DNA of 58,592 bases from Candidatus Enterousia sp. (GCA_045530935.1 JAZSDC010000022.1:1-58592); one strand, 5' to 3'; shown: positions 12,647 through 58,592, numbered from the stretch's first letter. The notes: generated from the sequence alone by a model not told the origin. Translations and numbers: made by a program.

Positions 12647-13350
12647 AAAATATGACACTGGTACAGCATTTTTCAGAATTGCGTCGTCGTATCTTATGGG
12701 TGGCGCTTGTTTTTATCGTTACTTTTGTTTTGGGATGGTATGTTGCCCCAATATTGCAAGAATTTTTAACCGCGCCATTGTTATCGGCGTGGGATGATGG
12801 GACGTTGTTATATACAAGTTTATCTGATGGTTTGATGATTCATTTTTCTATGGCGACATTGTTTGCGTTGATTATTATTTTGCCCGTGGCGTTGTGGCAT
12901 GCGTGGGCCTTTGTTTCGCCGGGGTTGAAAAAAAATGAACGTAGAATAATATGGCCAATGTTGATTGCGTCGCCTGTATTATTCGTTCTTGGGGCAATGT
13001 TTGCTTTTTATTTTTTATTTCCTGTTGTCTTCAGTTTTTTTATAGAACTAAATAAATCATCCCCTGTGCCCAGTATGTTGTTGCCTGTGGCACGTGATTA
13101 TTTAGGATTTGCGATTGGATTAATGAAAACGTTTGGGGTCGCATTTCAATTGCCTTTGTTGCTGGTTTTGTTGAATCGAATCGGGGTTTTAAGTCGTGTG
13201 TATGTAAAGAAAATACGTAGGTATGCAGTTGTTTTAATCATTATTGTTGCAGCGATTTTAACACCGCCAGATGTGGTTTCGCAGATTATGCTGGCACTGC
13301 CAATGTGGGCACTGTTTGAGATTGGTATTTTATTTATGCGTCGTGATTGA
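12643..13350 (+). CDS. tatC: twin-arginine translocase subunit TatC
   Basis: HFSELRRRILW start, six hydrophobic segments, AAILTPPDVVSQ motif. Confidence 0.9.
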   Translation: MKNMTLVQHFSELRRRILWVALVFIVTFVLGWYVAPILQEFLTAPLLSAWDDGTLLYTSLSDGLMIHFSMATLFALIIILPVALWHAWAFVSPGLKKNERRIIWPMLIASPVLFVLGAMFAFYFLFPVVFSFFIELNKSSPVPSMLLPVARDYLGFAIGLMKTFGVAFQLPLLLVLLNRIGVLSRVYVKKIRRYAVVLIIIVAAILTPPDVVSQIMLALPMWALFEIGILFMRRD

Positions 13351-13370
13351 TTTTGTGCTATAATAGTTGT

Positions 13371-14597
13371 GTGAAAAAAATCATTTGGATTTTTGCTGCG
13401 GTTCTTTTTACGCAAACTGCGTGTGATTTGCAACCGAAAATTCAATCGTTGCCAGATTCTGTTGGTGACTTTATTTCAGCGCGATATCCTGCATTATTGG
13501 CAGACCCAAATGTTAATCCAGATATTTATAATTCTGCAGCGACAGACTATGGCGTGTACGCATCTGCAGAATTATATGGCCAGGATGAAACAAATGATTA
13601 TGTGATGTATGCGTCAGTTGATGATTATGTTGTGCCAATCCAGACGGCGGAATATGGAACGCCACCAGTGATGCATGATGTGCAAAAAACGTATAAAGTA
13701 TCAGAAGATGATGTCTTAATTGTGCCAATATACAAGAAATCAGAGAAGAATATAGCGGCACAATCCGTAGAGGAATATGGTGATGTTTTGACGGTAGATA
13801 GACCAAATTCAGGGGTTAGGGCAGTTGCGCGTGTTGGCTTGAAAGATATACGTGTTTCTGTGGGCGACACGTTGTATTCTTTATCAAGAAAGTATTCTGT
13901 GCCAGTAAATGATTTGGCGGTTATAAATAATTTGCGCCCGCCATTTAATTTGACTGTTGGACAAAAGTTACGTGTTCCAAATCTTGAGGAAGTTATGACG
14001 AAACAAAGTAAGGATGTTGTAATTGATAAAGTGCAAAAATCGCAGAAATCAAGCGTAGAGAAAGAAATTAATGTTGCAAAAAAAACAGATGTTTCTGTCC
14101 CTGTGATAAAAGAAAAACAAGATGTAAATGTTAAAACTGAAACAAAAAAAACAGTGAAAGCAGAAAAGAAAATTTCATCTAATCCAAATAAAAAATTGCC
14201 TAAGATTATGGCGCGTTCTTCATCTAAATTTTCCTGGCCGTTGCATGGCAAGGTGTTGTCAAACTATGGTGCAAAGACAAATGGTTTGTTTAATGATGGA
14301 ATAAATATCGCAGCGGCACGTGGCAGTACTGTTGCAGCGGCAGAAAATGGCGTGGTCGCTTATGCAGGTAATGAAATCAAGGGAATGGGAAATCTGGTTA
14401 TTATCCAGCATTCAGATGGTTGGATGACGGTTTATGCACATATGGATTCAATGAGTGTGCGTCGTGGCAGTCGTGTGACTGTCGGTCAAAAAATTGGTTC
14501 CGTAGGTCAAACAGGTAAAGTAGATAGACCACAATTGCATTTTGAAATACGCAAAGGAACAAAGGCATATAATCCTATGTCGTATCTAAAAAAATAA
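13371..14597 (+). CDS. LysM + M23 peptidase (NlpD-like)
   Basis: LysM motif (VSVGDTLYSLSRKYSVPVNDLAVINNL...GQKLRVP). M23 motifs (GINIAA..G..V.AA.NGVV.YAG, IIQHSDGWMTVYAHM, LHFEIRKG). Start is either GTG 13371 (VKKIIWIFAAVLF signal-like) or TTG 13347. Confidence 0.85.
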   Translation: MKKIIWIFAAVLFTQTACDLQPKIQSLPDSVGDFISARYPALLADPNVNPDIYNSAATDYGVYASAELYGQDETNDYVMYASVDDYVVPIQTAEYGTPPVMHDVQKTYKVSEDDVLIVPIYKKSEKNIAAQSVEEYGDVLTVDRPNSGVRAVARVGLKDIRVSVGDTLYSLSRKYSVPVNDLAVINNLRPPFNLTVGQKLRVPNLEEVMTKQSKDVVIDKVQKSQKSSVEKEINVAKKTDVSVPVIKEKQDVNVKTETKKTVKAEKKISSNPNKKLPKIMARSSSKFSWPLHGKVLSNYGAKTNGLFNDGINIAAARGSTVAAAENGVVAYAGNEIKGMGNLVIIQHSDGWMTVYAHMDSMSVRRGSRVTVGQKIGSVGQTGKVDRPQLHFEIRKGTKAYNPMSYLKK

Positions 14598-16233: not shown

Positions 16234-16848
16234 ATGAAAAAGTTAGCATTATCAACACTGGCTGTGCTGATGGCATGTCCTGCTTTTGCGGGTATAAATC
16301 ATCCAGATCAGGGTAGCAGTTGGCAAATGTGGGGCATGGACCCATATATTGGTTTAAGGGGTGGTATGAGCTATTCTAATTTAAACTATAAATATAATGG
16401 CAGCAAGGAATCAATGACCGATTTTATTTTTCAAGGGCGTGCTGCATTGGGTTTAGAAGTTTGTGACACTGTTCGTTCAGAAATTGAATGGTCTTATTTT
16501 GGTAAATTGTCTGACTCCGAGCGCTTTGGCAGTGCAGGAAGTGTTGATGTAGAAGCGAAAATGCAGACATTGTTGTGGAACAACTATATGGAATTTGGTG
16601 CATATAAAATTGTACGCCCATTCGTCGGTTTAGGTGCTGGTATTGCGATGACAGAAGTTAAGCGTCATGGCGATTTAGTGCCACGTCACAGCAAGGATGA
16701 AACGCGTTTCTCGGCGATGGGAACATTGGGTGTAACATTTGATATGGAACGCTTTGCGGTTGATTTGGCTGCACGTTATACATATGTTGATATTAATTCT
16801 GGATTACATAATTTTGGTGGTGATGTAGGTATCAGATTTATGTTCTAA
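16234..16848 (+). CDS. small outer-membrane beta-barrel protein (OmpW/opacity-porin-like)
   Basis: Signal peptide ..ACPAFA, alternating beta-strand pattern, C-terminal GIRFMF. Confidence 0.65.
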   Translation: MKKLALSTLAVLMACPAFAGINHPDQGSSWQMWGMDPYIGLRGGMSYSNLNYKYNGSKESMTDFIFQGRAALGLEVCDTVRSEIEWSYFGKLSDSERFGSAGSVDVEAKMQTLLWNNYMEFGAYKIVRPFVGLGAGIAMTEVKRHGDLVPRHSKDETRFSAMGTLGVTFDMERFAVDLAARYTYVDINSGLHNFGGDVGIRFMF

Positions 16849-31162: not shown

Positions 31163-31206
31163 ACTTAAAAAGTAAGGGATTATTATAACAGGGAAAGGAA
31201 GTGTCT

Positions 31207-32151
31207 ATGTTCCGTAAGATATTGATTGTTGCAATGTTTGCAACGGCTACGTATTATTGTTATGCGTCTGAGTATTTGCCACAAGTGGTCACCTCGGAGG
31301 TTTTTTATGAACAGGATACAACAGTGGATTCTGGTGAACAGAGCGCGTCTGATGTGGTAGAGATTGCAATGGAACAGATTCCTGCGTGGCCGTTGGCAGG
31401 GTCGGATGCAGATGTCGAAGTGTCGTGCCAGGGTGGGGCTTGTTCCAAGAAAAAACAGCAGGATAATATACGTATCGTTTCCAAGATTGGTGCAGATTTA
31501 GTTGTAGAGAATAACTTTAATCTGGGGGCGCGTGGCGAATTTACAGGGTGGTCAGGCGGTGCAAATATGTTGCATGGTAATCAGATTCCTGTTGGATTTG
31601 ATGATGAATGTTATAATAGTTCAGAAATGCCGTTGTTGCATCGTGAAGTCTTGGAAGATGATGGGGCTAATGTTTTGGCAGTGTCGCGCAGCGGGCGCAA
31701 AAATTGTGGCAAGTACGCAGATACTTACGAAGCGTTTGCTGTAAGAAATGGTATGAGTGCGGAATTGGAAGCAGAAAAAAAGGAATTGTTAGCCTTGGGA
31801 AATGGCGATGTTTCAGAAACGGAAAGTGTAGAGGAGACTGAAGAGATTTCTGTCGATATTTCTGCAGATGCAGAAGCGCCAGCAGTGCTGACGGACCAGG
31901 TTCGTTCATGGGTGGTTGCAAATGGTCAAACATTGCGCGAGGTGTTACAGTCGTGGTGTGATAAAGAAGGTTGGGATTTGGTTTGGACAACCCCACGTGA
32001 ATATCCAATTGAAGCAAGCGCAGTGTTCAAAGGGCGTTTTGTTGATGTGGCATCTGCTCTGGTGCGTAACTTTGGTCGTGCAACGCCTGTGCCATATGCT
32101 AAGTTCTATAAAGGTAACAGGGTGTTGGTGATTTCAACGTCACAGGAATAA
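31207..32151 (+). CDS. TcpQ/PilL-like type IVb pilus accessory protein
   Basis: Signal peptide MFRKILIVAMFATATYYCYA. C-terminal WVVANGQTLREVLQSWCDKEGWDLVW....YPIEASAVFKG.F..A...L matches the TcpQ C-terminal domain pattern. ATG 31207 is preferred over GTG 31201 because of SD spacing. Confidence 0.6.
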   Translation: MFRKILIVAMFATATYYCYASEYLPQVVTSEVFYEQDTTVDSGEQSASDVVEIAMEQIPAWPLAGSDADVEVSCQGGACSKKKQQDNIRIVSKIGADLVVENNFNLGARGEFTGWSGGANMLHGNQIPVGFDDECYNSSEMPLLHREVLEDDGANVLAVSRSGRKNCGKYADTYEAFAVRNGMSAELEAEKKELLALGNGDVSETESVEETEEISVDISADAEAPAVLTDQVRSWVVANGQTLREVLQSWCDKEGWDLVWTTPREYPIEASAVFKGRFVDVASALVRNFGRATPVPYAKFYKGNRVLVISTSQE

Positions 32152-32186
32152 AATTTTATACATAGATGTTGTAGGAGAATATAGAT

Positions 32187-33815
32187 ATGATAAAGCCAAT
32201 GAAATTTTTTGTTCTTTCTATGGTTGCATTGCTGGCATTGGGTGGTTGTGCCAAGCGTGAGTCTGCAAAAGTAGCGGCATCTGTGGATCAAGATTTTATT
32301 AATGCATATGATGCTTTTGAAATGGCGAAAAATCCACGCGCTAAGGTTGCAAGTGGTGATACAGTGTCTATGTCAGAAGGAGTATGGTTGGGTAACAAGT
32401 CTGTGACGTTAGAGCATCGTAATAATTTGCCATCGAAATTTGAAACAGATACAGGGGTTACTATTTTGTTGAATGAACCTGTGTCATTGCAGGTTTTGGC
32501 AAATGATATATATTCTATGACAGGTATCCCTGTTAAGATAGATGGTCAAGTCTCGGCAGAAAAGTTGAAAAAGCAGGTTACAGTTGCCTATACAGGAAAG
32601 TTGTCGGGGTTGTTAAACCAGGTGGCAACCGATTTGGACTTGTTGTGGTATTATGACAAGAATTCAATTGTGTTTTATGAAACAGAAACAAGAACTTTTA
32701 CTTTGTATGCGCTGGGGACTGAGGTTGCGTATCAGACATCCGTATCGACGGATAATTCAAATGAAGTTTCACTGGAATCAACCTTGAAAGAATGGGATGA
32801 AGTTGAAAGCGCAATAGCGTCCATTATTGGCAAGGCGGATAATGCTGATTTTACTGTGTCGCGCAGTTTGGGTACGATTACTGTGACAGCATCACCATCG
32901 ATTCTGTCGCGTGTTGGTGAATATATCGAAAGACAGAACAAGCGTTTAAGTCAGCTGATTACGATTGATGTGAAGGTGTTGCAGGTTACTATTTCAAATG
33001 ATTCAGCGTTTGGATTAAATTTGGCGGCGGCAATTAATTCTTCGTCTGGATTGAATATTGTTGCTAATCCAAAAAATAATCTGGCATCAACCGAGGCAAG
33101 TTCAATGAACATTGCTGTGTTGTCAAATACGGTTTCTGCATTGACAGGTGCAACACATTTAGAAAATGGCACGATGGTAGAAGGGGCGTATACTAATGAT
33201 CAAATTATGAATGGTTCCCTTGCAGGGGCGGCAGGCAGTGCGGCATTGATAGAAGCATTGGCAAAGCAGGGCAAGGTGTCGTTGGTTACGAATGTTGGTG
33301 TCACAACGCGTTCAAACCGTGTGGCGCCAGTTAGCAATACGCGTACTACGGGTTACATAAAACGTTTTGAATCGCGTAATTTTACAACAGTTGAATCTAG
33401 CACAGTTGACCAAGATGATTTAGAAACAGGTTTTACGATGCAGTTGCTGCCGAATGTTTTGGAAAATGGCAAGATTTTATTGTTGTTCCGTATGTCTGTG
33501 CGTGAATTATTGCGTATGTCAACCCAGACAATCGGAGAAGTTACATTACAGTTACCAGAGGTTGAAGAACGTAGCTTTATGCAGGAAGTTATTATGGAAT
33601 CTGGTCAAATGTTGGTTGTTTCTGGTTTCGAAAAACAGACCAGCCAGGACAAGCGTTATGGTCTGGGTGATCCTGATTTTATGGCGTTGTCTGGTTCTCG
33701 CGAAACGTCTGCAACACGTGAAGTTTTGGTTGTTATATTGACACCACAGGTTTTGATAAGCCCAATGGATGCAGAACGTAGTATTCAGCAACATTGGGGG
33801 GCGCCATTGAATTAG
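32187..33815 (+). CDS. pilN: PilN-like type IVb pilus secretin lipoprotein
   Basis: Lipobox LALGGC. C-terminal secretin block GFTMQLLPNVLENGKILL...LPEVEERSFMQEVIMESGQMLVVSGF...REVLVVILTPQVL. Confidence 0.7.
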   Translation: MIKPMKFFVLSMVALLALGGCAKRESAKVAASVDQDFINAYDAFEMAKNPRAKVASGDTVSMSEGVWLGNKSVTLEHRNNLPSKFETDTGVTILLNEPVSLQVLANDIYSMTGIPVKIDGQVSAEKLKKQVTVAYTGKLSGLLNQVATDLDLLWYYDKNSIVFYETETRTFTLYALGTEVAYQTSVSTDNSNEVSLESTLKEWDEVESAIASIIGKADNADFTVSRSLGTITVTASPSILSRVGEYIERQNKRLSQLITIDVKVLQVTISNDSAFGLNLAAAINSSSGLNIVANPKNNLASTEASSMNIAVLSNTVSALTGATHLENGTMVEGAYTNDQIMNGSLAGAAGSAALIEALAKQGKVSLVTNVGVTTRSNRVAPVSNTRTTGYIKRFESRNFTTVESSTVDQDDLETGFTMQLLPNVLENGKILLLFRMSVRELLRMSTQTIGEVTLQLPEVEERSFMQEVIMESGQMLVVSGFEKQTSQDKRYGLGDPDFMALSGSRETSATREVLVVILTPQVLISPMDAERSIQQHWGAPLN

Positions 33816-52155: not shown

Positions 52156-52827
52156 ATGAGCAAAGTTATGTCTGCTGCCGTGTTGGGGGCGCTGGTTATG
52201 TTTGGTGGGGCGCATGCGGCGCCAGTTTCGTCACAGCCAAATATGTTGCAGCGTTTGTTTGGCGGTCAATGGTATGGTGCGATTCGTGGTGAAGCGTCTT
52301 TTTTAAATTGGAAAAATGAGTATTCATCAGATGCTGATGTTGATGGCACGTCAGAAAGATTTTCGTTTGAACCTGTTTTTGGTGCTTCTTTGGCGATTGG
52401 GCATGTTGGTGATAATAATTGGCGTGGTGAAGTAGAAGCAGGGCTGATTGGACGTTTTTCGGACAGTGGATATGGCGCAGATTTTAAGCTGACTATACCA
52501 TATGTGTCGGTTAATGCGTTGCATGATTTTGATAATAATGTCTTTGTTGGGGCAGGGTTGGGATTGGCGCTGCCTAAGGTTGATTTAAGTTGGTACACGT
52601 TTGAAGTTGATGAACGTGAATTTTCACCAAAGTTTGATTTGATGGCGGGATATTCGCATCAACTGGATTCGCGGGTAAGCTTGGAATTCCGTTACAAGCT
52701 GTCTGTGTTGTTCGGGCCGGATGTCAAGGCGCAGGGAATTTCAAACTCTGGTGATTATTGGCTGAAAACAGATGTGGGAACAATTTTTGCTAATTCATTT
52801 TCTATTGGGTTAAGGTATATTTTCTAA
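52156..52827 (+). CDS. small outer-membrane beta-barrel protein
   Basis: SD ggaaagggg then ATG 52156. Signal peptide ..GGAHA|AP. Ends SFSIGLRYIF. The longer ORF from 51967 overlaps ftsE and is rejected. Confidence 0.65.
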   Translation: MSKVMSAAVLGALVMFGGAHAAPVSSQPNMLQRLFGGQWYGAIRGEASFLNWKNEYSSDADVDGTSERFSFEPVFGASLAIGHVGDNNWRGEVEAGLIGRFSDSGYGADFKLTIPYVSVNALHDFDNNVFVGAGLGLALPKVDLSWYTFEVDEREFSPKFDLMAGYSHQLDSRVSLEFRYKLSVLFGPDVKAQGISNSGDYWLKTDVGTIFANSFSIGLRYIF

Positions 52828-52910: not shown

Positions 52911-53780
52911 ATGGAACAAAAGTTTAAAATATCGTTGCTGTCAGTTGTGTGCGTGTTGTGCGCGGCGGTGACGTTGCCTGGGTATGGCGCTGCTTCGGTT
53001 CGTTCGTTGGGCGGGGCGGGCACATATGTCGGTACATCTGGTGCGGCGGCTGCGAAAAGAAACGGTGTTTCGAATTCTGTTAATTCTGCGCGTGCAGGTT
53101 CTATGCGTGTAAATAAGTCTGATGCGGCAACATCTGGATCGCGTATTAGTGCAACGCGTGCGTCTGGAACGCCGCGTTTGTCAATTGGTAAATATTTATC
53201 AGGGTCCAGTATGATTAACCCAGGACAATCGGTGTCTGGTGGTGTTGCAAGCGGTAGACCTGGTGGCTCAGATGATAAACCAAGTGGGTTAGAGGCGCGT
53301 GTAGACGCGTTGGAAGCGTACGTTGATTTTGATGCGGATGCCCAAGAAAATATCGCGGACAAGGTTGCAGCTGTTTCAGACAGGATTGAAAGCTTGGTTT
53401 TGGATGTTGATAAGTTGTCTCAAGATTTGTCCCAGGTCACAGGTGAACATACAGTTGTCGATTATGAAAATGGTGTTCTGACGGTTGTTCAGGATGGGCA
53501 GACATTTAATTATGAATTGAATAAAGTTTTTGCTGGCAAGGACGAGGTTGCGGCACTGCAGGATGCGATTGATGATATCCAGATGGGGAAAGAGGCGCTG
53601 ATTAATTATTATACTAAAACCGAAGTTGATGGATTGCTGGAAGGTTATGCGAAAAAGGGTGATGAAAGAGTTATAACTGCTGATATGTTAGACGTTGGTA
53701 ATGTGGCGCCGGGTGGTTTGCTGATGTTGCAAACAAATGCCCAGGGTGTGCCAGAATGGGTTGATGTGAATATTTACTAA
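52911..53780 (+). CDS. fibre-family protein A (divergent N-terminus, shared coiled-coil/C-terminal module)
   Basis: Signal-like MEQKFKISLLSVVCVLCAAVTLPGYGAAS, Ser/Gly/Arg-rich region, coiled coil (LEARVDALEAYVD..), tail-fibre-like YYTKTEVDGLLEGYAKKGD. Ends GGLLMLQTNAQGVPEWVDVNIY*. Confidence 0.6.
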   Translation: MEQKFKISLLSVVCVLCAAVTLPGYGAASVRSLGGAGTYVGTSGAAAAKRNGVSNSVNSARAGSMRVNKSDAATSGSRISATRASGTPRLSIGKYLSGSSMINPGQSVSGGVASGRPGGSDDKPSGLEARVDALEAYVDFDADAQENIADKVAAVSDRIESLVLDVDKLSQDLSQVTGEHTVVDYENGVLTVVQDGQTFNYELNKVFAGKDEVAALQDAIDDIQMGKEALINYYTKTEVDGLLEGYAKKGDERVITADMLDVGNVAPGGLLMLQTNAQGVPEWVDVNIY

Positions 53781-53819
53781 TTAAAAAAGAAAAATAAAAA
53801 ATAAGAAAGGAAGGAAAAG

Positions 53820-54722
53820 ATGAAAATAAAAAATATTATGTTCTCTGGTGTTATGGCGGCAATCTTGACATCAGTATGTGGTGCGGCCAGTGCGGCAACG
53901 GTTGATTTGGTTACCAAAGGCTATGTAGACAAGGCTGTTGCAACAAAGCAGGCTGATTTGGGATTGACAGCCGAAGGGTTGCAAGCAATTCAGACCGAAG
54001 CAGGCAAGGTTACAGGTATTGCACAACGTGTAGAAGCATTAGAAGGTGATATTGGCGAAATGCCTGTGGATGGTTTTACAATTAATGGTAATACGGTTAA
54101 TACAATTGTTGGGGCGATTAATGCGTTGGATACCAAGGTTGCGTCCAGTGAAGATGTTTCTGATTTGAAAGAGTTGGTGACAAACAGTGAAACAGGTTTG
54201 CAGAAACAATTGGCAGATGTTAAAAATTTGGTTGGCGACACATCAGTTGAGAGCCAGATTCAAGATGCAACAGCCGGTATGGTATCAGAAGGGGAGTTGA
54301 ATACAACATTGGCTGACTATGCCACAGATGAAGAAGTTAAAAACTTGGTTGGTGAAATACCAGTTGCAACCCAGATTCAAGATGCAACAGCCGGTATGAT
54401 TACAGAATCAAATATGACAGAAAAATTATCTGGCTATGCGACGGATAGTGAATTGCAGGCTGTGTCAAATGTTGCGAATGCTGCTTTGACAAAAGATGTT
54501 GCGGATACATTGTATGATGCGAAAAATGCAGCGGCAACAGTTAAATCTGAAATAGCAGCTGAAAATTACATCAGTGGTAATGGCGAAGCAGGTACATATC
54601 TGGTAACCAAAGATGGTAATGGCGGTGTTACATGGAATGCAGTTGTTATTGTCGATGAAGAAGGTAAAAATGCAATTACTGGTCAGACAATTGAACAGCC
54701 ATTGCCAGATGCTGGTGAATAA
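53820..54722 (+). CDS. fibre-family protein B
   Basis: Signal peptide MKIKNIMFSGVMAAILTSVCGAASA, then TVDLVTKGYVDKAV. Has 39-aa repeats (VKNLVG..QIQDATAGM). C-terminal motif AGTYLVTKDGNGGVTWNAV. Confidence 0.65.
   Translation: MKIKNIMFSGVMAAILTSVCGAASAATVDLVTKGYVDKAVATKQADLGLTAEGLQAIQTEAGKVTGIAQRVEALEGDIGEMPVDGFTINGNTVNTIVGAINALDTKVASSEDVSDLKELVTNSETGLQKQLADVKNLVGDTSVESQIQDATAGMVSEGELNTTLADYATDEEVKNLVGEIPVATQIQDATAGMITESNMTEKLSGYATDSELQAVSNVANAALTKDVADTLYDAKNAAATVKSEIAAENYISGNGEAGTYLVTKDGNGGVTWNAVVIVDEEGKNAITGQTIEQPLPDAGE
54219..54408 (+). repeat. 117-bp-period tandem repeat inside gene B
   Basis: gttaaaaa(t/c)ttggttgg... at 54219 and 54336. The 28-bp core ccagattcaagatgcaacagccggtatg is identical at 54254..54281 and 54371..54398. 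Confidence 0.85.
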
Positions 54723-54795
54723 TAAGGATATAAAAAACTGCTAAGGTCCCTGCCATAATGTGGGGTGCGTAAAAAAACGAAAGAAAGGAAAAAAA

Positions 54796-55872
54796 ATGAA
54801 AGTAAAAAATATTATGTTTTCAGGCATTATGGCAGCGATTTTGACATCTGTTGCAGGTAATGCCGGTGCTGCGATTTCTGTTGCATCCCAAGGGTATGTT
54901 GATACAGAAATTGGCAAGGTAAATGCCACAGTAACAAATTTGGAAACCAATATTACAAATAATTATGTAACAAACAATAATTTGGCAGGTGCAGTTGCAG
55001 ATGCAATTGAAAATGCAGAATCTGGAACATTGGCAGAAATTGATTCTGTTATTGATCAGGTTGGCAATTCAGAATCTGGTTTGGTTGCGGATGTTGATTC
55101 TTTGCAAAACGCGATTGGTGAAAATACAATCGGTGATTTGGGTACAGATGCCGAAGGTAATGCGATTACCAGTGTTGAATCTGCATTGGCGTTAAAAGAA
55201 GATGTTGCAAATAAAAAGACGTCGATGACCGCAGATGAATACAAGGCAATGTCCAGTTCAGACAAAGAAAAGTTCTATACATCTGTTGCAGCGGCAGAAA
55301 CAATTGCAAATGCAATTGTAACCCAGATTGAAGCTGATGCGGGCGATTTGTCTGACTTGCGTAGTGATGTTAATACTGCAATGAATGATATTGATGCATT
55401 GGAAGAATTGGTTGGTGAAACTTCTGTTCAATCACAAATTTCAACAGCAACTGCAGGTATGGTTACGACAGAAAACAAAGCAACAACATTGGCAGACTAT
55501 GCCACAGATGAAGAAGTTAAAAACTTGGTTGGTGAAACTTCTGTTCAATCACAAATTTCATCAGCATTGTCTTCTTATACTAATACCGAAGGGACCCAGA
55601 ACTTAATCGCAACTGCAAAACAAGAAGCGATTGATACAGCGGCAGGTGATGCGACAACCAAGGCGAATGATGCATTGGATTCCGCAAAGACTTATACAAA
55701 TGACGAGATTGCAAAATTAAGCGCACTGGCCAAGGCGTCGGTTCCAACAGAATGTTCGTCTGAATCTACGTATTGTGTGTTGTCATATAATGGTACAGAA
55801 TATTCATGGATGCCATTGACTGCGCCGGCAGAAACACCATCAAATTCAAATGGTGAAGAATTGCCAGAATAA
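54796..55872 (+). CDS. fibre-family protein C
   Basis: Signal peptide MKVKNIMFSGIMAAILTSVAGNAGA (near-copy of B), ISVASQGYVDTEIGKV, and 39-aa repeats. C-terminal motif PTECSSESTYCVLSYNGTEYSWMPL. ATG 54796 has the SD; 54760 is rejected. Confidence 0.65.
   Translation: MKVKNIMFSGIMAAILTSVAGNAGAAISVASQGYVDTEIGKVNATVTNLETNITNNYVTNNNLAGAVADAIENAESGTLAEIDSVIDQVGNSESGLVADVDSLQNAIGENTIGDLGTDAEGNAITSVESALALKEDVANKKTSMTADEYKAMSSSDKEKFYTSVAAAETIANAIVTQIEADAGDLSDLRSDVNTAMNDIDALEELVGETSVQSQISTATAGMVTTENKATTLADYATDEEVKNLVGETSVQSQISSALSSYTNTEGTQNLIATAKQEAIDTAAGDATTKANDALDSAKTYTNDEIAKLSALAKASVPTECSSESTYCVLSYNGTEYSWMPLTAPAETPSNSNGEELPE
55408..55560 (+). repeat. 117-bp-period tandem repeat inside gene C
   Basis: The 36-bp sequence ttggttggtgaaacttctgttcaatcacaaatttca is identical at 55408..55443 and 55525..55560. 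Confidence 0.85.
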
Positions 55873-55880
55873 AATTTAAA

Positions 55881-55911
55881 AAAAGGGCAAAAATATGTTT
55901 TTTGCCCTTTA
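55881..55911 (+). terminator. rho-independent terminator after gene C
   Basis: aagggcaaaaa / tatg / tttttgccctt. Confidence 0.7.
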
Positions 55912-55965
55912 CAGGATTAGGCAAAAAATGATATAATGCATCATACGAAAGGAAGGAAGGGAATT

Positions 55966-57009
55966 ATGAAAAAGTTAACATCCAGTATTTTTGTTGGAAT
56001 TCTGGGGCTTTGTGCGGTCGGGGTGGCGGATGCTGCGGTCGTTTCCACTGGCTATTTAGAAGAAAAATTAGCAGACAAGCAAGATGCGTTTACTGTTGAT
56101 GGTAACGTTAAAATGTCAGATAACAATGTTTTGACTGTTGAAACTGGCGCGGTTGCTGAAAATGCAACAACATTGGTTACCGGTGGTGCGGTTGATACGG
56201 CGATTAAATCTGCTGTTTCTGCCGAGGCGACTGCCCGCGATAACGCGATTACAAACATAATTGGTGATTTGGGTGAAAATGCGTCTGTTGTTGCTGCGAT
56301 TGCATCTTCTTTGGACGAAGCTAATAAATACACAGATGATGAAATTAATGAATTGGCGGCAAAACTGGATGGTACTGCAGGCCCAGAAGGTCAACCGGGC
56401 TTGGTAACCCAGGTTACAACCCTGCAACAATTGGTTGGTGATACTGCGGTTGCGACCCAGATTGCAAATGCAATTGGTGCGTTAACGGCTGAGGATATCC
56501 CAGAATTGGGAATTTCCAAGATTAATGGTCTGCAGGATGCGTTGGATAATAAACAGACTAAGTTGGGTGTCGATGATTTTGGTAATTTTGTCACAATTGA
56601 TGAAAATGGCAAGATTGTTACGACGTTCAAGGCGACTGATTCTGTTACAATTGCTGACGATGGTTCATTAAGTGTTGGTGTTATCACAAATGCTAATATT
56701 GCAGATGGCACAATTGATGGCAGCAAGCTGACTGCAAATTCTGTTACTGCGGACCAAATTGCATCAGGTGCAATTGGCGTAGATGAACTGGGCGCGAATG
56801 CGGTTACAGATGCTGCGGTTGCAGACGGTGCGTTGGCTGTTGCAAAGATTAATGGTTTGCAGGCATCATTGGATGAAAAATTTGAAATCCCTGAATATAC
56901 AACACAAACCCAAGAGGGTACATATGTTCTGACGGCAACTCAGAAGGATGGTGTCGTTACATATGCGTGGGAAAATATTGCAGGTCGTGATGATAGTGCG
57001 ACAGAATAA
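55966..57009 (+). CDS. fibre-family protein D
   Basis: Signal peptide MKKLTSSIFVGILGLCAVGVADA, then AVVSTGYLEEKLADKQD. Repeated KINGLQ(D/A)(A/S)LD(N/E)K. C-terminal motif EGTYVLTATQKDGVVTYAWENI. Confidence 0.65.
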   Translation: MKKLTSSIFVGILGLCAVGVADAAVVSTGYLEEKLADKQDAFTVDGNVKMSDNNVLTVETGAVAENATTLVTGGAVDTAIKSAVSAEATARDNAITNIIGDLGENASVVAAIASSLDEANKYTDDEINELAAKLDGTAGPEGQPGLVTQVTTLQQLVGDTAVATQIANAIGALTAEDIPELGISKINGLQDALDNKQTKLGVDDFGNFVTIDENGKIVTTFKATDSVTIADDGSLSVGVITNANIADGTIDGSKLTANSVTADQIASGAIGVDELGANAVTDAAVADGALAVAKINGLQASLDEKFEIPEYTTQTQEGTYVLTATQKDGVVTYAWENIAGRDDSATE

Positions 57010-57070
57010 TATATAACGAAATTTAAATCACTTTGTGATTAAATAAAAAAAGAAAGAAAGGAAGGAAAAC

Positions 57071-57907
57071 ATGAAAAAATTATTAACAGTATCTTTGTTG
57101 GCGATTATGTCTGTAAGCGCTGCAAACGCAAAAATCGCATCAACAGAATATATGGAAAAGGTTGCAGGTGCAACTTTAGCAACAGATGGTATAATCGCAG
57201 ACTTGCAAACAACAAGTAAAAAACTTGTTCCTGCTATTAACGAGGTAAAAGGTACTGCGGATTCTGCATTGTCAAAGGCGAATGCTAATGCACAGACTTT
57301 ACAGTCTATGGCGACATCTGAAACTGTTTCAGGAATCGACACTCGTTTGAATGCCGCCGAAGGTGAAATTGACGCATTGCAGACAGCGATGGGGACTACA
57401 ACAGATGTGACAGCAGATATTGCTGCTGCAAAGAAAGCTGGTACAGATGCTGCGACAGCTGTTGAAGCTTTAGAAGATGGTCAGGTTGCGACTAATACGA
57501 CGAATATTACCAATTTGACAACTACAAAGTTGAATGCATCAGAGGTTTCAGAAGCCGGTACGGTTGGTCAGTTAGTTACTACAATGCTAGGTACAACCGC
57601 GGGTGGGTTGACGTCAGAGATTAATGCTGCAAAGGGTGCAGCAGCTGCTGCCCAGGAGACAGCTGATGATGCTGCGACAGCTGTTGAAGCTTTAGAAGAT
57701 GGTCAGGTTGCGACTAATACGACGAATATTACCAATTTGACAAATGCTGTCAATGATCAGACTAATGGTTTGGCGACCAAGGCCACCAAGGCAGAATTGG
57801 GTATTAATGGTACTTTGACTGTTCCTACAGAATGTCAGGGGGCAGGTAAGGAATGTGCTTTGGTTATTATCAATGGTGTGGCTGAATGGCAGGTCGTTCA
57901 GAAATAA
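57071..57907 (+). CDS. fibre-family protein E
   Basis: Signal peptide MKKLLTVSLLAIMSVSAANA, then KIASTEYMEKVAG. Contains a 74-aa repeat. C-terminal motif PTECQGAGKECALVIINGVAEWQVVQK*. Confidence 0.65.
   Translation: MKKLLTVSLLAIMSVSAANAKIASTEYMEKVAGATLATDGIIADLQTTSKKLVPAINEVKGTADSALSKANANAQTLQSMATSETVSGIDTRLNAAEGEIDALQTAMGTTTDVTADIAAAKKAGTDAATAVEALEDGQVATNTTNITNLTTTKLNASEVSEAGTVGQLVTTMLGTTAGGLTSEINAAKGAAAAAQETADDAATAVEALEDGQVATNTTNITNLTNAVNDQTNGLATKATKAELGINGTLTVPTECQGAGKECALVIINGVAEWQVVQK
57446..57742 (+). repeat. 75-bp perfect direct repeat (222-bp period) inside gene E
   Basis: gatgctgcgacagctgttgaagctttagaagatggtcaggttgcgactaatacgacgaatattaccaatttgaca occurs at 57446..57520 and again at 57668..57742. 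Confidence 0.9.
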
Positions 57908-57928: not shown

Positions 57929-57961
57929 GCGGGACAGAATTTTCTGTCCCGTTTTTTTTTA
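57929..57961 (+). terminator. rho-independent terminator after gene E
   Basis: cgggacagaa / tt / ttctgtcccg plus T9. Confidence 0.8.
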
Positions 57962-57976
57962 TTTCCCTTTCCTACA

Positions 57977-58070
57977 TTCTCATCCCGGAAAAAACTTCTC
58001 ACCCCACCACACACCTTGTCACCCCGGGCAAAAAAATTGTCATCCCGGGGCTTGACCCCGGGACCTAGGT
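57977..58070. repeat. composite palindromic repeat unit 1 (tcatcccgg / caccccaccacacacc subrepeats plus hairpin core)
   Basis: ttctcatcccggaaaaaacttctcaccccaccacacaccttgtcaccccggg...ttgtcatcccggggcttgaccccgggacc. The core tcccgggg/ccccggga is self-complementary. Confidence 0.8.
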
Positions 58071-58095
58071 CGTACAACATTTTCCATATAATAAT

Positions 58096-58189
58096 TTCTT
58101 ATCCTGGGAAAAAATTTCTCATCCCACCGCACACTTTCTCATCCCACCACACACCTTGTCATCCCGGGGCTTGACCCCGGGACCCAGGT
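58096..58189. repeat. composite palindromic repeat unit 2 (direct copy of unit 1)
   Basis: ttcttatcctgggaaaaaatttctcatcccaccgcacactttctcatcccaccacacaccttgtcatcccggggcttgaccccgggacccagg. Confidence 0.8.
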
Positions 58190-58196
58190 TTGGTGC

Positions 58197-58496
58197 TTAT
58201 AATAAATTATTTAAATCTTCAAATAAGTCGCGCCATTCTGGGTTGAATTTTTCTATCAAATCTTTTTTCCAGTTTCGTTTCCATTCTTTTAAGCGCTTTT
58301 CGTGTCGTATAGCCTGGTTTACGTCTTCAAAGCGTTCGAAGTAAACTAATTTATCAATATTATATTTACTGGTGAAACCGGGGGTCAGGTGATTTTTATG
58401 TTCGAAAATTCGTTGCGGCAGATTACTGGTTATGCCTATGTAAAGCGTTCCATTTCTGGAACTGGCCATGATATAAACATAATAATATTTTTGCAT
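58197..58496 (-). CDS. GIY-YIG nuclease family protein
   Basis: MQKYYYVYIMASSRNGTLYIGITSNLPQRIFEHK.....FTSKYNIDKLVYFE.F.....AI..EK.LK.W.R. The track's N-terminal extension MSSRGLTPGPRS.. is only the repeat translated, so ATG 58496 (or 58502) is preferred. Confidence 0.8.
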   Translation of the reverse strand: MQKYYYVYIMASSRNGTLYIGITSNLPQRIFEHKNHLTPGFTSKYNIDKLVYFERFEDVNQAIRHEKRLKEWKRNWKKDLIEKFNPEWRDLFEDLNNLL

Positions 58497-58522
58497 GTAC
58501 ATAATATTTACAATGATATATG

Positions 58523-58592
58523 ACCTGGGTCCCGGGGTCAAGCCCCGGGATGACAAGGGGAGGGGATGACAAATTTTTTGTCCTGGGGTGAC
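58523..58592. repeat. composite palindromic repeat unit 3 (inverted relative to units 1 and 2; runs off the window)
   Basis: acctgggtcccggggtcaagccccgggatgacaaggggaggggatgacaaattttttgtcctggggtgac is the reverse complement of the unit 1/2 pattern. Confidence 0.8.

What the first reader, a model, noticed from the sequence alone, without database searches (positions are those of the whole stretch)
52911..57907. Five tandem genes for secreted, tail-fibre-like coiled-coil proteins downstream of a beta-barrel OMP gene: candidate undescribed surface-fibre system
Five same-strand genes share a modular build: 52911..53780, 53820..54722, 54796..55872, 55966..57009 and 57071..57907. Genes B-E have a Sec-type signal peptide, and those of B and C are near-identical (MK(I/V)KNIMFSG(V/I)MAAILTSV). 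The peptide is followed directly by a short motif [VI][AV][ST]xGY[VLM][DE] (LVTKGYVD, VASQGYVD, VVSTGYLE, IASTEYME). Next comes a long Ala/Thr/Asp/Glu-rich helical region made of internal repeats. A compact C-terminal module follows, (G/S)TY.L...(N/D)G....W..(V/I); in C and E it carries a Cys pair (PTEC....C). Gene A has a different Ser/Gly/Arg-rich N-terminal part but the same coiled-coil and C-terminal logic, plus YYTKTEVDGLLEGYAKKGD. The xxGYVD start and the YTK(T/A)EVD..L..KA unit are patterns I associate with phage tail-fibre and collar repeats, not with housekeeping envelope proteins. I see no lipobox, no beta-barrel translocator and no sortase signal, so secretion and anchoring are unexplained. 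The OMP gene at 52156..52827 immediately upstream is a possible partner. The 5' leaders are also paralogous (aaagaaaggaaggaaaa-ATG). This looks like a diversifying family of trimeric fibres (adhesin, host- or prey-recognition, or domesticated phage fibre) that I cannot place in a described system.
Basis: partly seen in the sequence, partly recalled or inferred. Interest (0 to 1): 0.78.

Follow-up and report, generated by a model that had tools for sequence, protein, structure and literature searches.

The report
Secreted phage-like fibre gene array
A gene cluster conserved across tiny-genome gut alphaproteobacteria (the Candidatus Enterousia / Rs-D84 group) encodes an outer-membrane barrel protein followed by five exported, probably three-stranded fibre proteins built from phage-fibre-like pieces. 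The family has no description anywhere I could search, and it may be how these partner-dependent bacteria touch other cells.

Summary
Five same-strand genes (A-E, 52911-57907) encode paralogous exported proteins. Each has a signal peptide, a short conserved N-terminal motif (B-E) and a variable repeat-rich helical shaft. Each ends in one of two small C-terminal caps: C1 with a Cys pair (C, E) or C2 (A, B, D).

No Pfam, NCBIfam or PDB family claims them. All homologues are unnamed MAG proteins from Candidatus Enterousia / order Rs-D84, gut alphaproteobacteria with genomes under 1 Mb, no flagella and a suspected partner-dependent lifestyle.

The cluster FtsX-FtsE | OMP - A - fibre array is syntenic in 45 of 56 loci, and the other 11 were not checked for missing upstream sequence. 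This is a fixed chromosomal operon, not a prophage.

Shaft modules are shared with phage tail fibres and fibritin (PHROG and Pfam hits in relatives). A-type orthologues in seven loci carry collagen triple-helix repeats, which argues for trimers. AlphaFold2 predicts segmented helices ending in a C-terminal beta-hairpin, foldon-like in position. Every sequence test for foldon homology failed.

Best reading: Sec-exported homotrimeric surface fibres nucleated by the C-terminal cap and docked by the N-terminus to the co-conserved OMP and/or protein A. Surface location, trimer state and export route are inferred, not shown. Verdict: a new family of a known general kind.

The parts
52156..52827 (+). 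Small beta-barrel outer-membrane protein (223 aa precursor, signal peptide AHA|AP, C-terminal Phe). It is the first gene of the conserved cluster and a candidate envelope anchor for the fibres.
   Evidence: Pfam OMP_b-brl E 3e-6, 28.0 bits against a 28.7 cut-off. It lies directly upstream of the A-type gene on the same strand in 45 of 56 loci. It is the fastest-evolving gene of the neighbourhood, 65-69% identity to the nearest relative against 89-94% for TolB, FtsE, DUF218 and the acyltransferase.
52911..53780 (+). Fibre A (289 aa): signal peptide, a Ser/Gly/Arg-rich N-region with three lineage-invariant motifs, a helical segment and a C2-type cap. The motifs are SVRSLGGAGTY (nt 52995-53027), ARAGSMRV, and PRLSIGKYL (nt 53172-53198). 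The cap lies at nt 53706-53777.
   Evidence: C2 HMM 4e-12; motifs conserved in 47 orthologues of 290-865 aa. Orthologues in 7 loci contain collagen G-X-Y runs.
53820..54722 (+). Fibre B (300 aa): signal peptide (nt 53820-53894), N-motif LVTKGYVD (nt 53907-53930), two copies of the 39-aa module (nt 54215-54446) and a C2 cap GTYLVTKDGNGGVTWNAVVIV (nt 54591-54653).
   Evidence: N-module 1e-22, C2 3e-16; repeats.
54796..55872 (+). Fibre C (358 aa): signal peptide, N-motif VASQGYVD, a segmented helical shaft holding the 39-aa module (nt 55395-55509) with its core repeated at nt 55517-55570, and a C1 cap with a Cys pair, P317-P344 (nt 55744-55827).
   Evidence: N-module 2e-23, C1 1e-18. The AlphaFold2 model has 16 helices over residues 32-313, then a hairpin at E327-331 / E336-340 with pLDDT 77-81. 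C320, C327 and W338 are invariant in 55 homologues.
55966..57009 (+). Fibre D (347 aa): its own conserved signal peptide, N-motif VVSTGYLE, helices over residues 73-201, a phage-tail-fibre-like repeat segment at aa 228-296 (nt 56647-56853) and a C2-type hairpin cap at aa 320-337 (nt 56923-56976).
   Evidence: (phrog_892 tail fiber protein 1.6e-5), (AlphaFold2 hairpin E320-327 / E330-337; BLASTP 1e-9 to a protein on a podophage-like contig).
57071..57907 (+). Fibre E (278 aa): signal peptide ANA|K, N-motif IASTEYME, an Ala/Thr-rich heptad shaft with a 100-nt internal repeat (57422-57521 / 57644-57743) and a C1 cap with a Cys pair (nt 57821-57898).
   Evidence: C1 4e-11; repeat at 90%; heptad z 4.5; phrog_2589 tail protein 1.3e-4.
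57929..57952 (+). Intrinsic-terminator-like hairpin followed by a T-run, closing the array.
   Evidence: 10-bp stem, 6 GC pairs, then TTTTTTTTTAT.
55882..55937 (.). Palindromic hairpin (55882-55910) and a promoter-like site (55908-55937, 11 of 12 matches with TG) between C and D. This is a possible internal transcription boundary.
   Evidence: These are consensus scans only, and the number of such sites in the region is no higher than in shuffled sequence.

Best explanation
The locus OMP-A-B-C-D-E is a lineage-wide operon of Candidatus Enterousia / Rs-D84. It makes Sec-exported homotrimeric fibre proteins for the cell surface.

Proposed mechanism:
1. Each chain is exported by Sec and its leader is cut at an AxA site. 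This step rests on sequence features only.
2. Three chains are brought into register by the small C-terminal beta-hairpin cap, which is disulfide-braced in the C1 type. This is the job the foldon does in T4 fibritin. It is inferred from position, predicted hairpin topology and collagen-containing orthologues.
3. The shaft then zips up. It is a mosaic of segmented alpha-helical coiled coil, 39-aa modules and phage-tail-fibre-type repeats, with collagen triple helix in some A orthologues.
4. The newly exposed, conserved N-terminal peptide ([VI][AV]S.GYVD) is the cell-proximal end. It docks onto a conserved envelope partner. The best candidates are the co-conserved small OMP and protein A, whose own N-region carries three invariant motifs. 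This is inferred from synteny and conservation.
5. The free-to-vary shafts project from a cell that has no flagella. They mediate or modulate contact with partner or host surfaces, or shield the cell. This step is speculative and rests on the reduced, partner-dependent genome.

The export route across the outer membrane is unknown.
For: Anatomy and paralogy.

Conserved ends, variable middle: the invariant columns lie only at residues 1-36 and 317-342 of C. The same pattern holds for D and A.

Distribution: 55 loci from GTDB species genomes, named Candidatus Enterousia, Alphaproteobacteria/Rickettsiales bacterium or simply 'bacterium', mostly from animal or human gut. All named protein hits are 'hypothetical protein' from MAGs.

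Synteny: DUF218-FtsX-FtsE | OMP-A-array in 45 of 56 loci. Arrays hold 2-6 family genes, and the commonest order is A, N+C2, N+C1, N+C1.

Trimer:
- Collagen G-X-Y runs in A orthologues of 7 loci. By established knowledge a collagen triple helix is an obligate trimer that needs an adjacent trimerisation domain.
- Pfam Fibritin_C coiled-coil hits and PHROG fibritin neck whisker and tail-fibre hits in relatives.
- The [ILV]xxNTxx motif, which I recall from the literature on trimeric coiled coils, is enriched in the family: 212 observed against 102+-9 in shuffles. The sequences are related to each other, so this is weak.

Fold: segmented helices plus a C-terminal hairpin in both models, with hairpin pLDDT 77-81 in C.

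Extracytoplasmic location: leaders, and an invariant Cys pair confined to the cap.

Too long for a periplasm: about 280 helical residues in C is roughly 40 nm (my arithmetic), and A orthologues reach 865 aa.

Faster evolution than the neighbours: dN/dS 0.26-0.43 against 0.03-0.09.

Lifestyle: Rs-D84 genomes are under 1 Mb, lack flagella, TCA cycle and respiration, and are thought to be partner-dependent (PMC12306168).
Against: - No direct trimer prediction was possible. Only monomer AlphaFold2 was available, and both models are poor overall (mean pLDDT 62.5 and 61.2, pTM 0.22 and 0.20).
- Foldseek found nothing.
- Every sequence test for foldon homology failed.
- Heptad signal is weak in B and absent in D.
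- The [ILV]xxNTxx motif is not enriched in the five window proteins themselves: 4 observed against 2.3 expected.
- No outer-membrane translocator, lipobox or covalent-anchor signal was found, so surface display has no known route. A small barrel of this type cannot pass a trimer.
- The conserved part is the cap, not a variable binding tip, which is unlike most adhesins.
- The signal peptides are unusually conserved, which could mean they are retained as membrane anchors.
- dN/dS stays below 1.
- No expression or localisation data exist.
Confidence: 0.55

Rival explanations
1. Envelope-internal structural proteins. The conserved 'signal peptides' are uncleaved N-terminal membrane anchors, or the proteins stay free in the periplasm. 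The coiled coils would then act inside the envelope as spacers or tethers between inner membrane, peptidoglycan and outer membrane, or as partners of the adjacent FtsEX in the way EnvC and PcsB coiled coils are.
For: Each positional class keeps its own leader sequence, and the leader is as conserved as the mature motif. No outer-membrane export or anchor signal was found. The array always sits next to FtsE/FtsX and near tolB. From established knowledge, FtsEX partners are secreted coiled-coil proteins.
Against: - The leaders look like classic cleavable ones: an 11-13 residue core followed by AxA.
- There is no LytM or CHAP hydrolase domain.
- Five to six hypervariable paralogues with phage-tail-fibre and collagen modules are not expected of a housekeeping periplasmic part.
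- Predicted lengths of 40 nm or more exceed a normal periplasm.
- dN/dS is 3-10 times that of the FtsE/FtsX neighbours.
- The FtsEX adjacency is divergent, with the OMP gene in between, in a lineage whose gene order is generally stable.
Confidence: 0.15
2. The fibres are released rather than cell-attached. They would be soluble trimers or vesicle cargo acting as decoys for phages or antibodies, as matrix or biofilm fibres, or as effectors on host mucus or partner cells.
For: There are Sec leaders but no anchor signal of any known kind. Strong Shine-Dalgarno sites and low dS are compatible with very high expression. A PilN-type secretin is encoded 20 kb away.
Against: The strictly conserved mature N-terminal peptide, the strict co-occurrence with the OMP and with protein A's invariant N-motifs are more easily explained by docking to a cell structure. 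No secretion ATPase or pseudopilin genes were seen beside the secretin.
Confidence: 0.12
3. Prophage, tailocin or gene-transfer-agent remnant: the genes are phage tail fibres or whiskers still serving a phage-derived particle.
For: PHROG tail-fibre and fibritin hits for D, E and relatives. Pfam Fibritin_C in relatives. Collagen-like tail-fibre PHROGs hit the L062 A orthologue. A protein on a podophage-like contig shares the D repeat.
Against: - The scanned ORFs across the 58.6-kb window gave only housekeeping genes or no Pfam hit, and no capsid, portal, terminase, sheath or baseplate gene.
- The locus has the same chromosomal position in 45 loci.
- All five proteins have Sec leaders, which virion proteins assembled in the cytoplasm do not need.
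- No relatives were found in 2.9 million viral contigs with the N-module patterns or in 50,697 phage genomes by tblastn.
Confidence: 0.04
4. Trimeric autotransporter-type (type Vc) adhesins or another known type V system, with the OMP acting as a split translocator.
For: The proteins look like trimeric fibres with Sec leaders, and a barrel gene is adjacent.
Against: Pfam finds no YadA anchor, Hep_Hag, HIM, POTRA or ShlB domain in A-E or the OMP. The C-termini are soluble hairpin caps rather than beta-barrel strands. By established knowledge, a barrel of about 200 aa of the OMP_b-brl type is too small to translocate a passenger.
Confidence: 0.02

Closest known systems
Bacteriophage T4 fibritin (Wac neck whiskers; Pfam PF07921 Fibritin_C; phrog_1056)
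   Same: Both have a short N-terminal attachment piece, a trimeric coiled coil broken into segments by loops, and a beta-hairpin of about 25-30 aa at the extreme C-terminus, which in fibritin nucleates trimerisation. Relatives of C hit the coiled-coil part of Fibritin_C (E 2e-6 to 2e-5, above the cut-off) and phrog_1056 (7e-9). By eye the caps line up with the foldon: IP....DG.YV...G...W against [19 protein letters not shown] (sequence).
   Different: Foldon homology is not detectable. A profile built from 781 foldon-like stretches gives no hit at E<=10 in 214 family proteins, and hhalign probability is below 2%. The caps are longer, and C1 has a Cys pair. The window proteins have Sec leaders and are chromosomal, with no phage context. 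The N-terminal motif is unrelated to fibritin's.
Bdellovibrio bacteriovorus MAT (mosaic adhesive trimer) fibres (Caulton et al. 2024, PMC10769870)
   Same: Both are multi-paralogue families in bacteria that depend on other cells. Both have a signal peptide, a conserved N-terminal piece thought to bind an unidentified cell-surface element, and a long mosaic trimeric shaft with phage-fibre ancestry. In both, the surface attachment mechanism is unknown.
   Different: MATs are about 1,000 aa, with a conserved beta-rich N-domain of about 130 aa and highly variable C-terminal binding tips or S74 chaperone-protease domains. Here the proteins are 280-360 aa, the N-piece is about 10 aa, the C-terminal cap is the conserved part and the shaft is the variable part. 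No Peptidase_S74 was found. The genes form one fixed array beside an OMP gene.
Phage tail fibre proteins of PHROG 892 / 28766 / 21412 (repeat I.DGAVT..KLA...V)
   Same: D residues 228-296, and longer versions in relatives, match these families: window D 1.6e-5, P0124 9e-15 and P0010 1e-11. P0208, a protein on a contig that also carries a P22-type portal and an SU10-type capsid gene, aligns with D at 40% identity.
   Different: Only one shaft module is shared. There are no receptor-binding tip, baseplate-attachment domain or phage neighbours.
Bacterial collagen-like surface proteins (Streptococcus Scl1/2, Bacillus BclA) and collagen-like phage tail fibres
   Same: A-type orthologues in 7 loci have 8 to more than 50 G-X-Y triplets followed by a small C-terminal cap. 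This is the architecture of a collagen stalk plus a trimerisation domain on a surface fibre.
   Different: The window's own A protein has no G-X-Y run. The caps are about 25 aa hairpins, not C1q-like (BclA) or V-domains (Scl). There is no LPXTG signal or exosporium context.
Trimeric autotransporter adhesins (YadA, UspA1, BadA)
   Same: Both are Sec-exported trimeric coiled-coil fibres of Gram-negative surfaces, with mosaic repetitive stalks.
   Different: The defining C-terminal 4-strand membrane anchor is absent. Polarity is probably opposite, with the N-terminus proximal here.

Membership tests
T4 fibritin / Fibritin_C (PF07921) | C-terminal foldon sequence ([27 protein letters not shown]-type hairpin) | tested here: not met
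   PDB profile searches with both cap alignments returned no foldon chain, although foldon fusions are, from my own knowledge, common in the PDB. hhalign against the T4 Wac C-terminus gave probability below 1%. A profile of 781 foldon-like stretches gave no hit at E<=10 in 214 family proteins or in 3,776 locus ORFs. Profile-profile probability was below 2%. Only the topology (C-terminal hairpin) and a by-eye motif resemble the foldon.
T4 fibritin / Fibritin_C (PF07921) | Segmented parallel trimeric coiled coil | tested here: inconclusive
   AlphaFold2 monomer models show many helices split by short loops. Heptad z is 4.5-4.7 in C and E, but 1.6 in B and 0.5 in D. Fibritin_C (profile positions 2-41) and phrog_1056 hit relatives but not the window proteins. 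Oligomer state was not computed.
T4 fibritin / Fibritin_C (PF07921) | Phage virion context (neck proteins gp13/14, tail genes) | tested here: not met
   The scanned window ORFs gave housekeeping genes or no Pfam hit, and nothing phage-like. No relatives were found in viral contigs or phage genomes.
Trimeric autotransporter adhesins (type Vc) | C-terminal YadA-type beta-barrel anchor; Hep_Hag / HIM head and neck motifs | tested here: not met
   No such Pfam hit at E<=1 in A-E. The C-termini are predicted soluble hairpins.
Bdellovibrio MAT fibres | Signal peptide followed by a conserved beta-rich N-terminal domain of about 130 aa | tested here: not met
   Signal-peptide-like leaders are present. 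The conserved mature N-piece, however, is about 10 residues, and helices start at about residue 32 in C and 28 in D. The definition comes from PMC10769870. No MAT sequence was compared directly.
Bdellovibrio MAT fibres | Variable C-terminal adhesive tip or S74 chaperone-protease | tested here: not met
   The C-termini are the most conserved part, with two cap types and C, C and W invariant. There is no Peptidase_S74 hit.
Phage tail fibre (phrog_892 and allies) | Match to the family profile | tested here: inconclusive
   Window D scores 1.6e-5 over 69 residues of a 782-position profile. Relatives score 9e-15 and 1e-11. One shaft module is shared, not the whole protein.
Bacterial collagen-like proteins | Runs of G-X-Y triplets (Pfam Collagen PF01391) | tested here: not met
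   The window proteins have none. Runs occur in A-type orthologues of L013, L026, L040, L042, L046, L051 and L062.
Braun lipoprotein-type periplasmic trimers / lipoproteins | Lipobox [LVI][ASTVI][GAS]C at the end of the leader | tested here: not met
   The leader Cys residues of A, B and D sit in the contexts VVC, VLC, SVC and GLC, so no Cys has the full [LVI][ASTVI][GAS] triplet before it.
OMP_b-brl (PF13505) small outer-membrane barrels (Omp25/Adr-like) | Profile match above the gathering score; signal peptide; C-terminal aromatic residue | tested here: inconclusive
   The protein at 52156-52827 scores 28.0 bits against a cut-off of 28.7, E 3e-6. It has the leader AHA|AP and ends in ...GLRYIF. 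Its strongest hydrophobic periodicity is near 2.2 residues. It has a weak NCBIfam Rick_Adr hit.

The most novel reading that the evidence does not exclude
The five or so paralogues are not redundant adhesins. They are successive segments of one heteromeric appendage. Protein A would be fixed to the envelope through its invariant N-motifs and the co-conserved OMP. Each following fibre would plug its conserved, signal-peptidase-exposed N-terminal peptide into the C-terminal cap (C1 or C2) of the one before it. This is end-to-end joining, as in the T4 long tail fibre (gp34-gp37).

This reading would explain three things: why only the ends are conserved, why positional orthologues and gene order persist across the lineage, and why two cap types alternate. 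It would be a new kind of Sec-dependent bacterial surface filament, assembled outside the cytoplasm from phage-fibre parts in a flagellum-less, partner-dependent bacterium.
Probability: 0.1. Interest if true: 0.85.

Novelty: new variant of a known kind. Interest (0 to 1): 0.6.

Why it matters
Rs-D84 / Enterousia bacteria are widespread in human and livestock guts. Their genomes are under 1 Mb, with broken glycolysis and no respiration, and they are suspected to live off a partner. Nobody knows how they make contact: no flagella are encoded in the lineage and no adhesins have been described for it (PMC12306168).

A cluster of an OMP gene plus 2-6 fibre genes, kept at a fixed position in at least 45 genome loci, is a sizeable investment for such a small genome. 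It is the obvious candidate for the contact apparatus.

The locus also shows phage-fibre building blocks re-used as Sec-exported cellular proteins: fibritin-type coiled coil, tail-fibre repeats, collagen, and a terminal hairpin cap. So far this has been documented mainly for the Bdellovibrio MAT fibres.

The small C1 and C2 caps could be new, compact trimerisation tags distinct from the foldon. C1 would be disulfide-locked.

Finally, the locus poses a clean open problem: how a Sec-exported trimer with no known anchor or translocator reaches and holds on to the outer membrane.

Tried and rejected
1. Direct family assignment. Pfam, NCBIfam and PHROG scans of A-E gave only sub-threshold hits of coiled-coil type. 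PDB phmmer for C and D gave nothing.

2. Foldon homology. I suspected it from the motif and tested it six ways. All were negative. The caps are therefore called foldon-like in position and topology only.

3. A word-index search with the Wac C-terminus returned only near-identical T4 foldons and was useless. The exhaustive search gave a broad foldon-repeat family, which still does not reach the Rs-D84 caps.

4. Foldseek of both AlphaFold2 models against the PDB and BFVD gave no match at E<=0.001. This is expected for low-confidence monomer models of fibres, so it is not evidence against a fibre.

5. Phage relatives. tblastn of C and D against 50,697 phage genomes found nothing. A viral-contig scan with the N-module patterns found nothing.

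6. The look-up of encoding contigs with window proteins: they are not on record, so three look-ups were wasted.

7. Cassette replacement in E of the nearest relative was rejected. The apparent break is an assembly gap, a run of N.

8. The TolB row of the dN/dS table is a frame error of mine and is ignored.

9. The HAP2 hit of the C1 cap (E 0.004, 20 residues) is treated as chance.

10. Prophage, trimeric autotransporter and lipoprotein readings were rejected on tested features (see the membership tests).

Full report
**1.

The six-frame ORF list shows five consecutive + strand genes at exactly the reported coordinates. They are preceded by a 223-aa ORF (52156-52827) whose best Pfam match is the small outer-membrane barrel family OMP_b-brl (E 3e-6, 28.0 bits, just under the 28.7 cut-off). 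All quoted sequence motifs are present.

B-E carry classic Sec-type leaders: a Lys-rich start, an 11-13 residue hydrophobic core and an AxA site.

I built HMMs of the N-terminal module and of two kinds of C-terminal module. They recover the five genes at E 1e-10 to 1e-23 and hit nothing else in the 58.6-kb window.

The DNA shows module sharing:
- A 117-nt unit (39 aa, NLVG.TSV.SQI..ATAGMV..LADYATDEEVK) occurs twice in B and once in C. Its 54-nt core recurs once more in C and once in D.
- A 100-nt unit occurs twice in E at 90% identity.
- The B and C leaders are 77% identical at the nucleotide level.

The 'paralogous leaders' are strong Shine-Dalgarno stretches. A terminator-like hairpin follows E (57929-57952).

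**2. Anatomy.**

The family has conserved ends and a free middle. In an alignment of C with 11 homologues at 30-42% identity, plus one at 85%, the invariant columns lie only at residues 1-36 and 317-342.

Residues 1-36 comprise the leader plus VASQGYVD. Residues 317-342 form the cap P..C......CVL.........W.PLT.

There are two cap types:
- C1, with an invariant Cys pair and Trp (window C and E).
- C2, G(T)YLV..DG.G...(W/Y)..V (window A, B and D).

Each positional class keeps its own leader:
- B/C class: MKVKNIMFSG.MAAIL
- D class: MKKLTAGIFTVMLGLCATSGADA
- A class: MK.ELKISTLSIVCVLCAA

Protein A lacks the GYVD motif. Its low-complexity N-region contains three motifs that are nearly invariant in 47 orthologues of 290-865 aa: SVRSLGGAGTY, VR.GSMRV and PRLSIGKYL.

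Heptad periodicity is clear in C and E (z 4.7, 4.5), moderate in A (2.6), weak in B (1.6) and absent in D (0.5). 'Coiled coil' therefore describes part of the family, not all of it.

AlphaFold2 monomer models of C and D are poor overall (mean pLDDT 62.5 and 61.2). Both show helices chopped by short loops and a terminal beta-hairpin. In C the hairpin is E327-331 / E336-340 at pLDDT 77-81. In D it is E320-327 / E330-337.

**3. Whose genes these are.**

Homologues are all unnamed proteins of metagenome-assembled genomes: 213 at E<=1e-3 for C and 94 for D. The few with names are called 'hypothetical protein [Alphaproteobacteria bacterium]'.

A scan of one genome per GTDB species found 55 loci. They come from MAGs labelled Candidatus Enterousia, Alphaproteobacteria/Rickettsiales bacterium or simply 'bacterium', most of them from ruminant, horse or human gut.

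The literature places Enterousia in the order Rs-D84. These genomes are under 1 Mb and lack flagella, TCA cycle and respiration. Glycolysis is incomplete, and a partner-dependent life has been proposed (PMC12306168).

The scanned ORFs of the window gave ordinary chromosomal genes or no Pfam hit. They include ThrRS, a PBP, RecJ, GatA/B, SufBD, a GyrB/ParE-type gene, DnaJ, UvrC, AsmA, DnaN and TolB. There are no phage genes.

**4. A fixed operon, not a recent expansion.**

In 45 of 56 loci the order is DUF218-FtsX-FtsE on one strand, then OMP, A-type and the array on the other. I did not check individually whether the other 11 simply lack upstream sequence.

Arrays that are not cut by contig ends hold 2-6 family genes. 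The commonest order is A, N+C2, N+C1, N+C1. The window has A(C2), B(N+C2), C(N+C1), D(N+C2), E(N+C1).

Positional orthologues are recognisable, so the paralogues are old and individually retained.

Comparison with the nearest relative (L059):

| Genes | aa identity | dN/dS |
|---|---|---|
| Acyltransferase, FtsE, DUF218 (TolB identity only) | 89-94% | 0.03-0.08 |
| FtsX | 78% | 0.09 |
| OMP | 65-69% | 0.17 |
| A-D | 81-86% | 0.19-0.43 |

Oddly, dS in B-D (0.20-0.34) is far below that of the flanking genes (0.77-1.66). This could reflect codon bias of very highly expressed genes, or recent recombination. I could not tell which.

**5. Relation to phage fibres.**

The window proteins give only weak PHROG hits: D to tail-fibre phrog_892 at 1.6e-5, and E to a tail protein at 1.3e-4. 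Longer relatives make the link solid:
- P0124 hits phrog_892 at 9e-15.
- P0010 hits phrog_892 at 1e-11 and fibritin neck whisker phrog_1056 at 7e-9.
- Pfam Fibritin_C is passed in three relatives, but on profile positions 2-41, the coiled-coil part and not the foldon.
- P0208, which shares the D repeat (BLASTP 1e-9), lies on a contig that also carries a P22-type portal and an SU10-type capsid gene.
- A-type orthologues in seven loci carry collagen G-X-Y runs, in L062 long stretches of them.

By established knowledge a collagen triple helix is an obligate trimer and needs a neighbouring trimerisation domain. This is the best evidence here that the family is trimeric and that the terminal cap is the nucleation domain.

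The shafts are therefore mosaics of the same parts that phage fibres use. The genes themselves are not in phages: tblastn against 50,697 phage genomes found nothing, and so did a scan of the viral contigs with the N-module patterns.

**6. Is the cap a foldon?**

By eye the caps line up with the T4 foldon (sequence read from AF158101).
- PDB profile searches with both caps returned no foldon chain.
- hhalign against the Wac C-terminus gave probability below 1%.
- An exhaustive search with the fibritin C-terminus found 582 proteins. From the best 150 of these, together with the six fibritin fragments, I built a profile of 781 foldon-like stretches with consensus GIPEAPSDGKQYVRKNGAWVEV.
- That profile finds nothing at E<=10 in 214 family proteins or in 3,776 locus ORFs.
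- Profile-profile probability stays below 2%, although the local alignment falls in the register I expected.

Conclusion: the cap is foldon-like in place, size and predicted topology, but homology is not shown. It is not a member of the foldon sequence family.

**7. Mechanism.**

Shown:
- An exported-protein signature.
- A conserved N-peptide and conserved cap.
- A variable mosaic shaft.
- Strict linkage to the OMP and to protein A.
- Phage-fibre modules.

Inferred:
- Cleavage at the AxA site.
- Trimerisation nucleated by the cap, which is disulfide-locked in C1.
- Shafts of about 30-45 nm, which is too long for a normal periplasm.
- N-terminus proximal, docked to the OMP and/or A.
- A role in cell-cell or cell-host contact in a lineage with no flagella.

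Unknown: how the trimer crosses or attaches to the outer membrane. There is no lipobox, YadA anchor, POTRA partner or sortase signal.

The only outer-membrane channel seen in the window is a TcpQ-domain protein plus a PilN-type (type IVb pilus) secretin at 31201-33815. No link to the array is shown.

**8. Rivals.**

- *Envelope-internal coiled coils.* These would be uncleaved anchors or FtsEX partners. This reading explains the oddly conserved leaders and the FtsEX adjacency. It fits poorly with the AxA sites, the lack of a hydrolase domain, the collagen and tail-fibre modules, the lengths and the faster evolution.
- *Released fibres.* This remains possible.
- *Prophage or tailocin remnant, or trimeric autotransporter.* Both fail tested features.
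- *End-to-end assembly.* The N-peptide of one fibre would plug into the cap of the previous one, with A as the base. This would neatly explain conserved ends, fixed gene order and two cap types. It is untested, and I give it about 10%.

**9. Comparison and novelty.**

The family works most like T4 fibritin in architecture and like the Bdellovibrio MAT fibres in biology (PMC10769870). MATs are Sec-exported, phage-derived, multi-paralogue trimeric fibres of a cell-dependent bacterium with an unknown anchor.

It is a member of neither family. The foldon sequence, the 130-aa MAT N-domain, the variable tips and the S74 domain are all absent.

I found no description of this family in Pfam, NCBIfam, the PDB or the searched literature. 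I rate it a new variant of a known kind, bacterial trimeric fibre proteins assembled from phage-fibre modules. Its unusual features are the minimal N-peptide, the two miniature caps, the fixed OMP-A-array operon and the reduced-genome host.

Interest is 0.6. The structural picture is solid, but there is no experimental handle yet on localisation or function.

Noticed in passing
window 31201-33815 (+): A TcpQ-domain protein (31201-32151; Pfam 6e-18) is followed by a secretin (32187-33815). The secretin's best NCBIfam match is the PilN-family type IVB pilus secretin, at 3.7e-70 but below the model's cut-off. The four flanking ORFs I scanned gave no hit, so no pilus ATPase, platform or pilin genes were seen beside the pair. 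The published Rs-D84 survey does not mention pili for this order. This is a possible outer-membrane conduit, but nothing links it to the array.
   Followed up: partly
window 57960-58592: The GIY-YIG gene (58197-58556, - strand) is bracketed by inverted repeats: 58037-58092 / 58501-58556 (56 nt, 86%) and 58147-58189 / 58523-58565 (43 nt, 93%). Short direct repeats of TTGTCATCCCGGG are also present. GIY-YIG homologues sit just past the fibre array in L018, L020, L023, L033, L038, L050, L058 and L059. It looks like a small mobile-element-like cassette marking the 3' border of the array.
   Followed up: partly
window 53820-57009 compared with L059 9025-12260: Synonymous divergence from the nearest relative is 0.20-0.34 in B, C and D but 0.77-1.66 in the flanking housekeeping genes, while dN is higher in the fibres. 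This suggests either strong codon bias from very high expression or recent recombination between strains. It is unresolved.
   Followed up: no
window 52911-57907 and homologues (P0001-P0214; loci L001-L062): Signal peptides are conserved almost residue for residue within each positional class across 30-40% identical proteins (MKVKNIMFSG.MAAIL; MKKLTAGIFTVMLGLCATSGADA; MK.ELKISTLSIVCVLCAA). This is unusual for Sec leaders and hints at a special targeting or anchoring role.
   Followed up: partly
L013, L026, L040, L042, L046, L051, L062 (A-type genes, e.g. L062 3518-5566): Orthologues of protein A contain collagen-like G-X-Y runs, from 8 to more than 50 triplets. The L062 protein passes many PHROG collagen-like tail-fibre families (2e-53 and weaker). 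One other orthologue has a Big_3 Ig-like domain (L041), and another has a Phage_XkdX motif (L034).
   Followed up: partly
proteins P0225-P0370 (search with the T4 fibritin C-terminus): The foldon hairpin is not confined to fibritin. 582 cluster representatives match at E<=1e-3, and many large proteins carry 5-14 foldon-like stretches each, with consensus GIPEAPSDGKQYVRKNGAWVEV. It behaves as a widespread repeat module.
   Followed up: partly
window 16234-16848 (+): This is a second small OMP_b-brl barrel paralogue (Pfam 5e-9, above the cut-off; weak Opacity-family hit), unlinked to the array.
   Followed up: no
window 55744-55827 (C1 cap of C): The C1 cap profile gave a short match (20 residues, E 0.004) to the Cys-loop strand ITIPKDCSS...ECILV of HAP2 gamete fusogen chains (9yc3_B, 7lr3_D). 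This is probably chance.
   Followed up: no
window 13347-14597 (+): A LysM + Peptidase_M23 protein is encoded here. It is a more conventional candidate partner for the FtsEX pair next to the array than the fibres are.
   Followed up: no
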